From: Escherichia coli
GTDB taxonomy: Bacteria; Pseudomonadota; Gammaproteobacteria; Enterobacterales; Enterobacteriaceae
Assembly (NCBI RefSeq): GCF_030013205.1
Contig: NZ_CP122648.1
Reading direction: 5' to 3' (one strand)
DNA: 64,000 nucleotides
Within the stretch, counting starts at the first letter, position 1. Each line of letters begins with the position of its first letter. The position numbers were made by a program, and so were the translations under genes. Below, one piece after another: positions 1,129-6,861 of the stretch. The notes beneath the pieces were generated by a model. That model did not search any database. It saw only the letters and a list, made by a program, of their open reading frames with translations, and was not told the DNA's origin.

Positions 1129-1805
1129 ATGAAAATCATTTGCCTCGAAGAACATTATCTCGACAGCGAGTTAGGGCGAGCGTGTATGCCTGTTGCGCTT
1201 GAGCAGGCACCTTTCCTTGGCGACTGGGGGAAAACCGTCGCTGATGGTCATAATCCTGACCGACTCCCTGCTTTCCCGCTTTAATAAACTGAATGTGCCA
1301 CTCTATCTTCATCCCGGGTTACCGCTTAAAAGCGTACAGCAGGCCTACTTCACGGGCTTCAGCGCAGAGGTCAACGCCAGGCTTTCTATGTTTGCCTGGG
1401 GCTGGCATCACGAAGCGGGGATCCATTTGTTGCGGCTGATGTTATCGGGCGCATTTGATAAATATCCCAACCTGCAGGTAATCAGTGGCCACTGGGGGGA
1501 GATGTTACCCTTCTGGCTCCAGCGTCTTGATGACAGCCTACCACTGGCTGCAACGGGTCTGTCACGCACGCTAACGAGAACCTTCCAGGAACACGTTTAC
1601 GTTACCCCGCCATATGCTAACACTGCCGCACTTCCAGTTTATCTACGCGTTAATGGGTGCTGAAAGGATCCTGTTCTCCGTCGATTATCCCTATCAGACC
1701 CTGGACGGTGTAAAAACCTTTATAGACAGTCTGCCCGTCAACAAGGCTGAAAAAGAGGCCATCGCATTTCGCAATGCAGAACGTTTACTGGGCATCACGG
1801 CGTAG
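1129..1805 (+). pseudogene. Amidohydrolase-2 (ACMSD-like metal-dependent hydrolase) gene, fragmented across three reading frames
   Basis: Short N-terminal ORF from ATG 1129 stops after about 50 codons; homologous segments continue in ORFs 1193..1663 and 1614..1805 in other frames; total span about 225 codons versus about 300 expected. Confidence 0.5.
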
Positions 1806-2529: not shown

Positions 2530-3549
2530 ATGCAGTATACCCGGCTCGGTAAAAGTGACTTACTTGTTTCCCGCATCTGCATGGGATGCATGGGGTTTGG
2601 CGATCCGTCGACGGGTCAGCATAGCTGGACGCTGGACGAAACAGCAAGCCGCGACATCATTCGCTATGGCCTTGAAAAGGGCATCAACTTTTACGATACC
2701 GCTATAGCCTACCAGAATGGCTCCAGTGAGCGATACGTTGGCCGGGCATTACGGGAGATGGCGAAACGCGATGATATCGTCCTGGCCACCAAGTTTCTGC
2801 CGCGAACCCCCGCACAAATTGCCGGAGGGATCAGCGGAAAAGAGGCAATCGCTCAATCCCTTGACCAGAGCCTGAAGAATCTGGGGATGGACTATATCGA
2901 CCTCTACATCTACCACATCTGGGATTACAACACGCCCATTATCGACGTGCTTGAAGCGTTACATACCGCTGTTACTGCTGGCAAAGTACGAGCTGTTGGT
3001 ATTTCAAACTGCTATGCCTGGCAGCTGGCGAAGGCGAACGCCCTTGCTGAACGCGAAGGGCTGACGCCCTTTGTTTCCGTACAGAGCCACTACAATCTAA
3101 TTATGCGCGAAGATGAACGGGAGCTCTTCGGCCTGTGCACTGAGGATAATATCGCAATGACCCCCTATAGCGCGCTGGCCAGCGGCCGCCTCTCTCGTAA
3201 AGAAGGCTATACACGGCGAGCCACAGAGGATGACTATGCGCGTGGAAAATATGACAGCACGGCTGAACAGGATCGCAGCATTATTGAGCGTGTAGCCGAA
3301 CTGGCCGAACGCCATCTGGTGTCAATGACGGAAATATCTCTCGCTTGGCTGCTGACAAAAGTCACATCACCTGTCGTAGGGGCTACAAAAAAAGCTCATG
3401 TCGATGGCGCGGTAAACGCAGTAAATCTTCAACTAAGTCCGGAGGAAATTCAGTTTCTGGAAGAAACCTACCAGCCGCATGTTCTGACGGGGATCATGGC
3501 GCAAAATACGCCGCAAACGAAAGATGTTAAGCAGGTCTGGATGCGATAG
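2530..3549 (+). CDS. Aldo-keto reductase (Tas/YajO-like, 339 aa)
   Basis: ORF translation (RLGKSDLLVSRICMGCMGFGD, IDLYIYH) matches the AKR family; tightly coupled to upstream gene. Confidence 0.8.
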   Translation: MQYTRLGKSDLLVSRICMGCMGFGDPSTGQHSWTLDETASRDIIRYGLEKGINFYDTAIAYQNGSSERYVGRALREMAKRDDIVLATKFLPRTPAQIAGGISGKEAIAQSLDQSLKNLGMDYIDLYIYHIWDYNTPIIDVLEALHTAVTAGKVRAVGISNCYAWQLAKANALAEREGLTPFVSVQSHYNLIMREDERELFGLCTEDNIAMTPYSALASGRLSRKEGYTRRATEDDYARGKYDSTAEQDRSIIERVAELAERHLVSMTEISLAWLLTKVTSPVVGATKKAHVDGAVNAVNLQLSPEEIQFLEETYQPHVLTGIMAQNTPQTKDVKQVWMR

Positions 3550-3664
3550 CCCTTATTCACTTTTCCTCCTCTCGTCTTTGAGAGCGCCAGTAGCGGTCGG
3601 TTACGTTCTTACCAGCACCAGTTGATCGAACGTCTTAAACAGTAACGTCAGTAAAAAGATCATC

Positions 3665-4390
3665 GTGAAAAAGACTTTTATGCTTTTAATTTGCATGCTA
3701 ATAAGCAGCCCTGTCTTTGCAACAAAACCGGACGCGCCGAATAAGTCGGAGATGAATATCTTCGAGCTCGGCATCAGACCCGATCGGGACAACGACTTTG
3801 CAGACGTGGCCAGACAGACGATTTCCGCTTCGGTTGATCATGAAGCAGGTACACTGGCGATGTATGCCCTGCAACGCAGCGACAATTCAGGTCAGGCATT
3901 CATGTTCGAACTCTATGAAAATGAGCGTGCTTATCGCAAACATCTCAATGCCGCCCCATACAAAGCATTCGCTGCTCGTGCACCTGACATTATTGACAGG
4001 AAGAAGAAAATTACCCTGGAGCCACAGTTTCTGGGCGACAAACACATCATACCGAATGAACGAACTATCAATAATCTGGTGATCGTCGAAGTAAAGCCTG
4101 AATTTCAGAGCGAATTTAGAAACATCGTCCTTCCTGAAATGGTCGAGTCGCTCAAAGTAGAGAAAGGCGTGTTAGCCATGTATGCCGGTACAGATTCAGA
4201 GACTCCAAAACGCTGGTATTTCTATGAGATTTACGCCAGTGAGGAGGATTATCAACTGCACCGACAAACGCTGCACTTCCTGGATTACCTCAGGCAAACG
4301 GCGCATATGAGCGCCAGGAAGGACGCAATCCCGGTAAAACCGGTATTTCTTCGTAACAAAGGCGGAATCAAACAGGAGCCGCAACGTTGA
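3665..4390 (+). CDS. Secreted protein with two tandem ABM (antibiotic biosynthesis monooxygenase-like) domains (241 aa)
   Basis: N-terminal signal-peptide-like segment (MKKTFMLLICMLISSPVFA); two repeats with the ABM-type YExYxxExxYxxH pattern (FELYENERAYRKHL and YEIYASEEDYQLHR). Confidence 0.55.
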   Translation: MKKTFMLLICMLISSPVFATKPDAPNKSEMNIFELGIRPDRDNDFADVARQTISASVDHEAGTLAMYALQRSDNSGQAFMFELYENERAYRKHLNAAPYKAFAARAPDIIDRKKKITLEPQFLGDKHIIPNERTINNLVIVEVKPEFQSEFRNIVLPEMVESLKVEKGVLAMYAGTDSETPKRWYFYEIYASEEDYQLHRQTLHFLDYLRQTAHMSARKDAIPVKPVFLRNKGGIKQEPQR

Positions 4391-4405
4391 CCAGTAAGGA
4401 TTAAC

Positions 4406-5170
4406 ATGAAAAGCGTACTTGCAGCAGCGGCTATGTCGCTTGTTATTTCTGATTTTGCCAATGCTGAGGAAACAAGAGGTAAAGCTATGATGAAAATAGA
4501 ACCGTCAGCGATTTCGGAAGCTGATATTCGTTCCGTCTCACCGGCTCTCGCGCGCTTTGGTCGCGAAGCTATTACTGAAGATCTGTGGACACGCGACGCC
4601 CTCTCACCGAGGGATCGTAGTGTGGTGACCGTCGCCATGCTGATTGCCCGCAACCAGCCTGCCGAGCTTAAGCACTATATTGACGTCGCTCTCGATAGCG
4701 GCGTGACGCCAGCGGAATTATCAGAAATCATTACCCATCTGGCGTTCTACTCAGGTTGGCCAAATGCAATGTCAGCCGTCAGCGTGATCAAAGCAGTATT
4801 TGAAACTCGTGGCGTCACGGCAGATGCACTTCCTGAAGCTTCTCCGGACCTGCTTCCTCTCAATCAGGAAGCAGAAAAGCAGCGTTCAGAGACAGTGGAA
4901 AAAAATGTTGGCCCAATATCTCCAGGCCTGGTTAAATTCACTGCTGATCCACTCTTCCTGGATCTCTGGCAAAGACCCGCGCTGAAACCCCGCGACAGAA
5001 GCCTGATTACGGTCAGCGCCTTAATCGCATCCGGACAGAGCGCGCAGATTGGCTATCACCTCAATAGAGCAATGGATAATGGACTTTCGGTGAGATCGTT
5101 ACCCAGGCCGCCTTCTATGCTGGCTGGCCAAACGCATTTACCGCTGCTCCGGTTGTGGGAGAGGTGCTAA
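4406..5170 (+). CDS. Carboxymuconolactone decarboxylase (CMD/AhpD-like) family protein with two CMD repeats; C-terminus apparently frameshifted
   Basis: Two repeats of the DRSxxTV...HLAFYxGWPNA pattern; the second repeat's conserved motif (EIVTQAAFYAGWPNAF) is encoded in a different frame from about 5092 and runs to a stop at 5196. Confidence 0.6.
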   Translation: MKSVLAAAAMSLVISDFANAEETRGKAMMKIEPSAISEADIRSVSPALARFGREAITEDLWTRDALSPRDRSVVTVAMLIARNQPAELKHYIDVALDSGVTPAELSEIITHLAFYSGWPNAMSAVSVIKAVFETRGVTADALPEASPDLLPLNQEAEKQRSETVEKNVGPISPGLVKFTADPLFLDLWQRPALKPRDRSLITVSALIASGQSAQIGYHLNRAMDNGLSVRSLPRPPSMLAGQTHLPLLRLWERC

Positions 5171-5610
5171 ACAATCGATCATCGAGTAAAAGGTAACATT
5201 ACTGAACACTAAAACCTGACGCACATCACAAAATTAGAACGATCAGTTCATGAACCAACAGACGTGACATCGAGTGATTTATGGACAGCGTTTAACACAG
5301 TTATGAACCAAAACTGAGTTCATAACTGTGAGTTTGAATCGTCATTTGATTAATATCCATTTAAAACAGTTTGTTATGCTGTTTCTGGTGCTGAAGTCAA
5401 TTATGTATATCCCTCAAACCCAGAATAGTTAAATGGAATTTGAGTGATGCGAAGCGATTTTACGGTCGTCGTTATTACTTCAGGGTTCCAGAACATAAAG
5501 CCTCTCCTCTTTCATGATTGGCCTGTGCATACCTGATATAGGCTGGCTGGTATGCAGGTTTGCCGTTTGCCGCATCTTCCCTGCGTTGAAGAGTCAGGCT
5601 GGCAAACCGC

Positions 5611-5865
5611 GTGCAAATGAACACCCCCTCTTTCCATCAACAATTCAGACAGCTTGCGGGAATGAGTCCACTCCGGTATCAGAAATGGCTACGCCTCAAT
5701 GAAGCCAGGCGACTGATGCTGAATGAACATTACGATGTCACCACTGCAGCCTATGCTGTCGGTTACGAAAGCTTATCCCATTTCAGTCGGGAATATTCGC
5801 GGATGTTTGGAGAGTCACCTAAGAGAGATATTACCAGGTTAAGAAAGTCTGTCGGTCAGCTTTAA
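5611..5865 (+). pseudogene. yneL: AraC-family regulator remnant, C-terminal HTH domain only (yneL-like)
   Basis: 84-aa ORF contains only the AraC-type HTH region (LAGMSPLRYQKWLRLNEARRLM ... SLSHFSREYSRMFGESP); no intact N-terminal domain ORF upstream. Confidence 0.55.
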
Positions 5866-6297
5866 TAAACCCTGCACTTATCTGTTTAGAGCAATTCCGT
5901 GTTAGTTACACCAGGCAAACATTAACCATAGCTAATGTTTTATAGCCATATAAACCATTGGCCGCTCTTGACCTTTCCTGACACTTCCCTTGTTCGCAAT
6001 AATATTCTGTTTAGTCGCTGTTTATAAATAACATGCATAATGAAATCGTAATGTTATTTAGCGACATAAAATGTCTTTGCAAATACTCTCTACAACAAGT
6101 GCTGCAATAAACTTGTTGTGATTAGGTGTCCTTGTAATTTAAAGATATTATCGTTCTTCGTGAAATGTAATAACCCTGGAACTATATTCTCAGGGCAATA
6201 TCCCATCAAGAATGATTCTTGTTTTATAAGCAATAACAGAATGACTTAATTGTTAACTTTCTTTATTCAGCTACTTAAATATAAATTTTGGAGAATT

Positions 6298-6861
6298 ATG
6301 AAACTCAAACATGTCGGTATGATTGTCGTTTCTGTGTTGGCGATGTCGTCTGCTGCGGTAAGCGCAGCCGAGGGTGATGAATCAGTAACGACCACTGTTA
6401 ATGGCGGTGTTATTCATTTTAAAGGTGAAGTGGTAAATGCCGCTTGTGCGATTGATTCAGAATCAATGAACCAAACGGTTGAGCTGGGTCAGGTCCGTTC
6501 TTCTCGTCTGGCTAAAGCGGGTGACCTCAGCTCCGCCGTTGGCTTCAATATCAAGCTGAATGATTGTGATACCAATGTTTCCAGTAATGCAGCTGTTGCA
6601 TTCCTGGGTACTACTGTCACCAGTAATGACGACACATTAGCGCTTCAGAGTTCAGCGGCAGGCTCTGCCCAAAATGTCGGTATTCAAATTTTGGACCGTA
6701 CGGGTGAGGTATTAATACTTGATGGTGCCACTTTTAGTGCTAAAACTGACTTGATTGATGGCACGAATATATTGCCGTTCCAGGCTAGATATATTGCTCT
6801 CGGGCAGTCAGTAGCTGGTACTGCAAACGCTGATGCGACCTTCAAAGTTCAATATCTATAA
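6298..6861 (+). CDS. Fimbrial major subunit (type-1-like pilin; F9/Fml-type operon)
   Basis: 187-aa product from internal ATG with GGAG RBS; signal peptide, conserved pilin Cys pair and C-terminal beta strand (ATFKVQYL); first gene of the chaperone-usher operon. Confidence 0.8.

What the first reader, a model, noticed from the sequence alone, without database searches (positions are those of the whole stretch)
5078..5196. Frameshift at the C-terminus of the tandem-CMD gene
The annotated frame ends with a non-conserved tail (RSLPRPPSMLAGQTHLPLLRLWERC), while the +2 frame encodes EIVTQAAFYAGWPNAFTAAPVVGEVL, a near-perfect second copy of the CMD motif seen in repeat 1 (EIITHLAFYSGWPNAMSAV). A 1-nt deletion or assembly error near 5088..5092 is implied.
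Basis: seen in the sequence. Interest (0 to 1): 0.35.

Follow-up and report, generated by a model that had tools for sequence, protein, structure and literature searches.

The report
Thirteen-base deletion breaks CMD gene
A real 13-base deletion, inherited by one pig-associated E. coli lineage and already flagged as 'frameshifted' in RefSeq, shifts the reading frame and destroys the end of a two-domain CMD-family gene, so this is an ordinary pseudogene and not a sequencing error.

Summary
ORF 4406..5170 (254 aa) ends in an unconserved tail, and another frame from 5089 encodes GEIVTQAAFYAGWPNAFTAAPVVGEVLNNRSSSKR*, the missing end of a second CMD domain (E=1e-10 against repeat 1). The lesion is a 13-bp deletion (TGTTGAGGAAGCT) between 5088 and 5089, not a 1-nt loss, and it is not an assembly error. 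Window 1-50000 is identical to E. coli ETEC4067. The same junction occurs in 17 complete genomes, all from pigs or wild boar; the six records inspected come from Belgium, France, Japan and Korea. The exact 254-aa product is recorded on 110 contigs. About 285 other E. coli genomes carry the intact 267-aa allele, and in the one intact record compared base by base the 13 bp is the only difference over 2.3 kb. Twenty orthologues from other genera and the solved homologue 4G9Q keep the intact frame. The frameshift replaces the last two helices of domain 2, which hold 19 invariant residues, so the gene is most likely inactivated. PGAP already annotates 4406..5196 as a frameshifted pseudogene. No slippery site, repeat or homopolymer suggests recoding or phase variation. 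Verdict: an ordinary, already annotated, lineage-specific pseudogene. Low interest.

The parts
4406..5196 (+). Whole frameshifted pseudogene of a signal-peptide-bearing tandem (dual) CMD-family protein. The intact allele is 804 nt / 267 aa.
   Evidence: PGAP annotates exactly these coordinates as 'carboxymuconolactone decarboxylase family protein, frameshifted' in the identical record NZ_CP122685.1. Intact allele WP_000843776.1 is in L002.
4406..5170 (+). ORF as it now reads: 254 aa. Residues 1-229 match the intact protein and are followed by a 25-aa out-of-frame tail, RSLPRPPSMLAGQTHLPLLRLWERC.
   Evidence: Pfam CMD 95.2 bits against 125.4 bits for the intact allele.
4406..4465 (+). Probable Sec signal peptide MKSVLAAAAMSLVISDFANA (an ANA|EE cleavage site is inferred).
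   Evidence: Read from the sequence. The N-terminal pattern is conserved in orthologues. AF2 pLDDT is below 50 for residues 1-36. No signal-peptide predictor was run.
4565..4792 (+). CMD domain 1 (aa 54-129), intact, containing EIITHLAFYSGWPNAMSAV.
   Evidence: Pfam PF02627 best stretch 54-129.
4931..5088 (+). The part of CMD domain 2 still read in frame (from aa 176). Native coding ends two bases into codon 228. S228 and V229 are recreated by chance across the junction.
   Evidence: Pfam stretch 176-255 in the intact protein. Junction mapping.
5088..5089 (+). Deletion junction. Thirteen bases (TGTTGAGGAAGCT) of the intact allele are missing between these two positions. The placement is unique and there is no microhomology.
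   Evidence: Alignment A1. A script found only one placement that reproduces the window, and zero other mismatches in 2301 nt.
5089..5196 (+). Out-of-frame remnant encoding the last two helices of domain 2: GEIVTQAAFYAGWPNAFTAAPVVGEVLNNRSSSKR plus the original stop.
   Evidence: It is 100% identical to the intact allele. Helices H229-242 and H245-266 in the AF2 model.
3665..4390 (+). Upstream, same-strand tandem-ABM ('putative quinol monooxygenase') gene that ends 15 nt before the CMD start. It is a probable operon partner and is given as context only.

Best explanation
The window is E. coli chromosome, identical to porcine strain ETEC4067. An ancestor of one pig/wild-boar-associated ETEC/STEC lineage, which includes O139:H1 ST1 edema-disease strains, lost 13 bp (TGTTGAGGAAGCT, codons 228-232) from an accessory gene for an exported tandem-CMD ('dualCMD') protein. 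Because 13 is not a multiple of three, translation leaves the native frame after residue 229 and ends 25 codons later. The last two helices of the second CMD domain are lost, including the family's most conserved EIVTxAAFYAGWPNAF motif. Shown: the deletion, its position, its presence in independent assemblies, its restriction to one lineage, the ancestral intact state, and the conservation of the lost segment. Inferred: that the product is non-functional, for example misfolded or unable to form the ring-shaped trimer reported for dualCMDs.
For: Searches show the two frames. Searches show a 13-bp deletion at 5088|5089 with unique placement, and it is the only difference over 2301 nt from the intact allele of CFSAN018748; 17 complete genomes, all from pig or wild boar, match the junction at 100% over 80 nt, and 285 genomes fall in the 80-90% identity band (86.0% in every listed row, spanning 93 instead of 80 bases), consistent with the 13-base gap of the intact allele. 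PGAP marks the gene 'frameshifted' in carriers from Korea, Japan, France and Belgium, and these genomes differ from each other nearby (IS66, IS2, other frameshifts). W13-16 and P15-25 are O139:H1 ST1, sequenced with PacBio plus Illumina; the only genomes 100% identical to the window over 24 kb are deletion carriers, and the next best is 98.8%; window 1-50000 equals NZ_CP122685.1; the exact 254-aa product is on 110 contigs in NCBI and Logan. PDB 4G9Q (269 aa) aligns without a gap through the deleted segment and the motif; 20 orthologues at 67-89% identity all keep the intact frame, and the lost 38 residues contain 19 invariant and 4 nearly invariant columns; in the AF2 model (pLDDT 72.7) the lost part corresponds to helices 229-242 and 245-266.
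Against: Loss of function is inferred, not measured. Domain 1 and the signal peptide are untouched, and a 254-aa product could still be made. The function of the intact protein is itself unknown, so no phenotype can be predicted. I did not build a whole-genome phylogeny, so a single origin rests on the identical junction without microhomology and on the locus-level similarity of the carriers.
Confidence: 0.93

Rival explanations
1. Sequencing or assembly error: the true genome carries an intact gene.
For: In principle, single complete genomes built from long reads can carry indel errors. Two French carriers show an extra frameshift in a neighbouring gene that could be of this kind.
Against: A 13-bp loss outside any homopolymer or repeat is not a typical read error. 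The identical junction appears in 17 complete genomes, and the six records inspected come from four countries. Two were assembled from PacBio plus Illumina reads. The exact product is on 110 contigs, including Logan read-run assemblies.
Confidence: 0.01
2. A single-nucleotide deletion near 5088-5092.
For: The net frame change is equivalent to -1 nt, so from one sequence alone this is the simplest guess.
Against: Alignment with the intact allele shows 13 consecutive bases missing and no other difference in 2301 nt. The intact protein has VEEAG where the window has only V plus the shift.
Confidence: 0.005
3. The truncated protein is still functional, or has a new function. The exported domain 1 plus three-quarters of domain 2 and the new 25-aa tail would form a working variant retained by the pig lineage.
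For: The signal peptide, the RBS (TAAGGA) and domain 1 (Pfam 54-129) are intact. The allele persists in isolates from four countries.
Against: The lost segment is the most conserved part of the domain (19 invariant columns) and forms two helices of its fold. The remnant is still 100% identical to the intact allele in the old frame, which indicates recent origin and not selection on the new tail. Persistence is expected from clonal inheritance alone. Neighbouring genes in the same island are also decaying.
Confidence: 0.05
4. Programmed ribosomal frameshifting or a reversible phase-variable indel restores the full-length protein.
For: A -1 shift right after codon 228 would rejoin the native frame.
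Against: There is no X XXY YYZ heptamer and no homopolymer of 4 or more bases near the junction, and no tandem repeat. The great majority of E. coli carriers (about 285 genomes in the gapped band) and all 20 orthologues aligned encode the protein in one frame, so a frameshift is not a conserved feature of the gene. A 13-bp deletion of unique sequence cannot revert by slippage.
Confidence: 0.01

Closest known systems
RefSeq/PGAP pseudogene 'carboxymuconolactone decarboxylase family protein, frameshifted' (e.g. QDX30_RS12520 in NZ_CP122685.1, IGX36_RS12500 in NZ_CP062203.1)
   Same: It is the same sequence at the same coordinates (window 4406-5196), with the same call of a frameshift.
   Different: Nothing differs. 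This analysis only adds the nature of the lesion (13-bp deletion), its distribution and its structural consequence.
Intact E. coli allele WP_000843776.1 (267 aa) and its Enterobacterales orthologues
   Same: 100% identical DNA apart from the 13 bp. Same gene neighbourhood: AKR, NAD(P)H oxidoreductase, AKR, tandem-ABM, then CMD.
   Different: The window's copy lacks codons 228-232 and reads out of frame afterwards.
dualCMD proteins with solved structures: 4G9Q (Rhizobium meliloti) and 2Q0T (Paraburkholderia xenovorans)
   Same: Two CMD signatures in one ~265-aa chain. 4G9Q aligns over residues 25-262 at E=8.5e-74. PMC5615479 describes them as homotrimers forming the same ring as canonical CMD hexamers.
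   Different: The function of dualCMDs is unknown (PMC5615479). The E. coli protein has a probable signal peptide. The window's copy has lost the end of domain 2.
Canonical gamma-carboxymuconolactone decarboxylase PcaC (TIGR02425; PDB 2AF7)
   Same: Same Pfam domain and motif type, E-x-x-x-[HQ]-x-A-x-Y-x-G-x-P.
   Different: It scores 113.2 bits, below the equivalog cut-off of 155.7. It is a tandem, not a single, domain. No pca genes lie in the neighbourhood. It is probably exported.

Membership tests
Pfam CMD (PF02627) family | Match to the CMD profile above the gathering score (23 bits) | tested here: met
   Window ORF 95.2 bits, intact allele 125.4 bits, two stretches each.
dualCMD (tandem CMD) subgroup | Two complete CMD signatures in one polypeptide | tested here: not met
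   The intact allele meets it: domains 54-129 and 176-255, 43% identical to each other. In the window the second signature EIVTQAAFYAGWPNAF lies out of frame after 5088|5089, so the encoded 254-aa product no longer has it.
dualCMD (tandem CMD) subgroup | Homotrimeric ring assembly, as reported for 4G9Q and 2Q0T | not testable with these tools
   Known only from PMC5615479. No oligomer modelling was done.
PcaC, 4-carboxymuconolactone decarboxylase (TIGR02425 equivalog) | Score at or above the curated cut-off of 155.7 bits | tested here: not met
   113.2 bits for the intact protein, summed over two domains.
PcaC, 4-carboxymuconolactone decarboxylase (TIGR02425 equivalog) | Protocatechuate / beta-ketoadipate pathway gene context | tested here: not met
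   Annotated neighbours are aldo/keto reductases, an NAD(P)H oxidoreductase, amidohydrolase fragments, an ABM protein, an HTH remnant and fimbrial genes. No pca genes are annotated across window 1-50000.
AhpD-type alkylhydroperoxidase (CMD superfamily) | Catalytic CXXC motif (from my own knowledge of AhpD) | tested here: not met
   The intact 267-aa protein contains no cysteine at all.
Frameshifted pseudogene | Frame disruption relative to intact, conserved orthologues, derived within the species | tested here: met
   13-bp deletion against the intact E. coli allele. About 285 genomes fall in the 80-90% band expected of the intact allele. Intact frame in 20 orthologues and in 4G9Q. PGAP flag 'frameshifted'.
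Programmed ribosomal frameshift site | Slippery sequence at the shift site, and conservation of the frameshift among orthologues | tested here: not met
   No XXXYYYZ heptamer or homopolymer in 5050-5120. The orthologues are single-frame.

The most novel reading that the evidence does not exclude
The 254-aa product (signal peptide, intact CMD domain 1, a partial domain 2 and a new 25-aa tail) is stably exported and retains or alters activity, or loss of this periplasmic dualCMD was selected during adaptation of the porcine O139:H1/ST1-type edema-disease lineage. In either case the deletion would be a functional, pathoadaptive change and not neutral decay.
Probability: 0.04. Interest if true: 0.25.

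Novelty: already known. Interest (0 to 1): 0.07.

Why it matters
It matters little beyond housekeeping. The gene should be treated as a pseudogene and not as a 254-aa protein, although GenBank holds it as a protein (BDY72548.1, BDY82633.1, STL96303.1). The frameshift should not be 'corrected' as an assembly error. The 13-bp deletion is a clean, irreversible indel marker for one porcine ETEC/STEC lineage and could serve for clone typing. It also adds one example to the visible gene decay in this accessory island. The intact protein, an exported dualCMD paired with an exported tandem-ABM protein, has no known function. That is a mildly interesting open question, but it is not what the finding is about.

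Tried and rejected
(1) Recoding or phase variation. I scanned 5050-5120 for X XXY YYZ heptamers and homopolymers of 4 or more bases and found none. Tandem Repeats Finder on 4900-5300 gave 0 rows.

(2) Deletion mechanism. A direct-repeat search in the intact allele found no family. It found only an imperfect 10-nt inverted repeat (CCTCAATAGA/TCTGTTGAGG, L002 4460-4469/4488-4497) whose right arm overlaps the start of the deleted block. By eye, CTGTTGAG and CTGGTGAG lie 12 nt apart, which does not fit a 13-nt loss. No microhomology exists at the junction. The mechanism is left open.

(3) The promoter/terminator scan of 3500-6300 gave counts no higher than shuffles and was uninformative.

(4) The plasmid collection holds only intact-type, gapped matches, in E. 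coli and Enterobacter mori records. No deletion allele was found on plasmids.

(5) A literature search for 'ETEC4067' returned nothing. '4G9Q' led only to a paper stating that dualCMD function is unknown.

They were repeated.

(7) I did not run a fold search. The sequence match to 4G9Q (E=8.5e-74) made it unnecessary.

Full report
**Observation.** The window holds an ORF at 4406..5170 (+, 254 aa). Translating the three + frames of 5061-5200 shows that the ORF frame ends ...NRAMDNGLSVRSLPRPPSMLAGQTHLPLLRLWERC*. Another frame reads GEIVTQAAFYAGWPNAFTAAPVVGEVLNNRSSSKR* (5089-5193, stop 5194-5196). BLASTP of that out-of-frame peptide against the N-terminal half of the same protein gives 15/30 identities and E=1e-10. 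The resemblance to the repeat-1 motif EIITHLAFYSGWPNAMSAV is therefore real and well beyond chance, although 'near-perfect' overstates it (12/19 identical in the motif, by my count).

**What the lesion is.** The 2.3 kb around the gene matches E. coli chromosomes. Fourteen records match at 100% over 2301 bases. The other listed full-length matches (H15-H30) span 2314 bases at 99.4%. Aligning the window with one of these (CFSAN018748, locus L002) shows one block of 13 bases, TGTTGAGGAAGCT, present there and absent from the window.
- A script confirmed that removing those 13 bases makes the two sequences identical over all 2301 positions.
- Only one placement of the deletion reproduces the window, between 5088 and 5089, and there is no microhomology at the junction.
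- The intact gene is 804 nt / 267 aa (WP_000843776.1).
- The deletion removes the last base of codon 228 and codons 229-232. S228 and V229 are recreated by chance, so the two proteins are identical for 229 residues. The native 38-residue C-terminus (EEAGEIVTQAAFYAGWPNAFTAAPVVGEVLNNRSSSKR) is then replaced by 25 unrelated residues.

**Real mutation or artefact.** An 80-nt probe centred on the junction matches 17 complete E. coli genomes at 100% over its full length, all from pigs or wild boar. Another 285 genomes fall in the 80-90% band. Every listed one is at 86.0% and spans 93 bases instead of 80, which is the intact allele with the 13-base gap.
- The six carrier records I inspected come from South Korea (K_EC180), Japan (EC556), France (W13-16 from wild boar, P15-25 from pig) and Belgium (ETEC1748, ETEC4067).
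- They differ from each other nearby: an IS66 insertion in EC556, IS2 in the usher gene of ETEC1748, an usher frameshift in K_EC180, and an oxidoreductase frameshift in the French strains. They are therefore independent isolates and assemblies.
- W13-16 and P15-25 are O139:H1 ST1 edema-disease strains sequenced with PacBio RSII plus Illumina (PMC8798679).
- The exact 254-aa product is recorded on 110 contigs from NCBI and Logan assemblies.
- Window 1-50000 is byte-identical to NZ_CP122685.1 (ETEC4067) 2529781-2579780.
- A 13-base loss in unique sequence, with no homopolymer and no repeat, is not a typical read error. Assembly error is excluded for practical purposes.

**Lineage.** A 24-kb stretch elsewhere in the window (13000-37000) is 100% identical over its full length only in six genomes, all deletion carriers. 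The next best genome is 98.8% identical. Combined with an identical junction that lacks microhomology, the parsimonious reading is one deletion in the ancestor of a porcine ETEC/STEC clone that includes O139:H1 ST1. The out-of-frame remnant has not accumulated a single change relative to the intact allele, so the event is recent.

**Ancestral state and what is lost.**
- Pfam finds two CMD (PF02627) stretches in both alleles, but the score drops from 125.4 to 95.2 bits in the window's product.
- The solved homologue 4G9Q (269 aa, E=8.5e-74) aligns without a gap from residue 25 to 262. This includes ...LSEEQAAEVITHLAFYAGWPNAMSALPV... opposite the deleted and frameshifted part.
- One database search returned thousands of relatives. 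Twenty orthologues at 67-89% identity (Enterobacter, Dickeya, Pectobacterium, Klebsiella, Cronobacter, Pantoea, Raoultella, Serratia, Erwinia, Yersinia, Aeromonas and others) all keep the single frame.
- Within the 38 lost residues, 19 columns are invariant (E231 A232 G233 E234 V236 F241 Y242 G244 W245 P246 A248 F249 A251 V254 V255 G256 E257 V258 L259) and 4 are nearly invariant.
- An AlphaFold2 model built on this alignment (mean pLDDT 72.7, pTM 0.71) places helices at 229-242 and 245-266. These are the counterparts of helices 102-115 and 118-134 in domain 1.
- The frameshift therefore removes the last two helices of domain 2, including the family's signature helix-turn-helix.
- PMC5615479 reports dualCMDs (4G9Q, 2Q0T) as ring-forming homotrimers of unknown function. 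Losing two helices of one pseudo-subunit would be expected to disturb both the fold and the ring. This step is inference.

**Family placement.** The protein is a CMD-family member and, in its intact form, a dualCMD.
- It is not a PcaC equivalog: TIGR02425 gives 113.2 bits against a cut-off of 155.7, and no pca genes lie nearby.
- It cannot be an AhpD-type peroxidase, because it has no cysteine.
- Its N-terminus (MKSVLAAAAMSLVISDFANA|EE) looks like a Sec signal peptide and is conserved among orthologues.
- The gene directly upstream, ending 15 nt before the CMD start, encodes a tandem-ABM protein that also has a signal-peptide-like N-terminus if it starts at GTG 3665. The biological role of the pair is unknown.

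**Alternatives.**
- Programmed frameshifting or phase variation is not supported. There is no slippery heptamer, homopolymer or repeat at the site, and the frameshift is absent from all orthologues.
- A residual or new function of the 254-aa product cannot be excluded with sequence tools, but nothing supports it.

**Novelty and verdict.** PGAP already annotates window 4406-5196 as 'carboxymuconolactone decarboxylase family protein; frameshifted' in every carrier inspected. This is a real, ordinary, already recorded, lineage-specific pseudogene. Interest is low. The only practical uses are as a clonal indel marker and as a caution against treating the GenBank 254-aa entries as a genuine protein.

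Noticed in passing
window 1129-1805: An amidohydrolase-family gene is broken into small annotated pieces (1244-1663, 1653-1805, plus a 'hypothetical' at 1129-1284). This is further decay in the same accessory oxidoreductase island.
   Followed up: no
window 5599-5865: Remnant of an AraC-type helix-turn-helix regulator lacking its N-terminus, annotated as a pseudogene. My 2.3-kb query (3600-5900) found a match in 4274 of 5426 E. coli genomes, but only 461 cover 80% or more of it. The CMD island is therefore accessory, while some part of the query, probably this remnant, is widespread.
   Followed up: partly
window 3665-3695: PGAP starts the tandem-ABM 'putative quinol monooxygenase' at 3695 (MLISSPVFATKPD...). 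Starting at GTG 3665 gives MKKTFMLLICMLISSPVFA|TKPD, a much better Sec signal peptide. The annotated start is probably too short, and both this protein and the dualCMD are probably periplasmic.
   Followed up: partly
window 5296-5330: Perfect 13-nt inverted repeat CACAGTTATGAAC(9 nt)GTTCATAACTGTG in the 400-nt non-coding gap between the CMD pseudogene and the HTH remnant. It could be a terminator-like or operator-like element, or a scar.
   Followed up: no
window 20137-22598: An IS1 element (transposase 21276-21973, minus strand) splits the yddA ABC-transporter gene into two pseudogene halves. P15-25 has intact yddA, so this insertion is younger than the CMD deletion.
   Followed up: partly
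window 3600-5900, compared with L002: Apart from the 13 bp, this island segment is 100% identical in CFSAN018748. Fifteen other listed records show the same 99.4% / 2314-base match, as expected if they too differ only by the gap (from human, cow, duck, chicken and wastewater sources). None of these 16 is among the 45 best matches to the flanking core, which fall to 98% identity. Proteins at least 90% identical also occur in Enterobacter and Klebsiella aerogenes. This suggests recent horizontal spread or recombination of the island.
   Followed up: partly
proteins P0005, P0010, P0067: Other sporadic damaged or odd alleles of the same gene exist in public data: a 7-aa in-frame deletion (KPRDRSL), a 12-aa in-frame deletion in domain 1, and a LolA-CMD chimera on a 2.2-kb contig that is probably an assembly artefact.
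   Followed up: no
loci L001, L003, L004, L005, L006 (relatives of the window): Carriers of the deletion show further lineage-internal decay around the locus: IS66 (ISCro1) between the AKR and ABM genes (EC556), IS2 in the fimbrial usher (ETEC1748), an usher frameshift (K_EC180), an NAD(P)H-oxidoreductase frameshift (W13-16, P15-25) and an internal stop in dosP (P15-25). All of these genes are intact in the window.
   Followed up: partly
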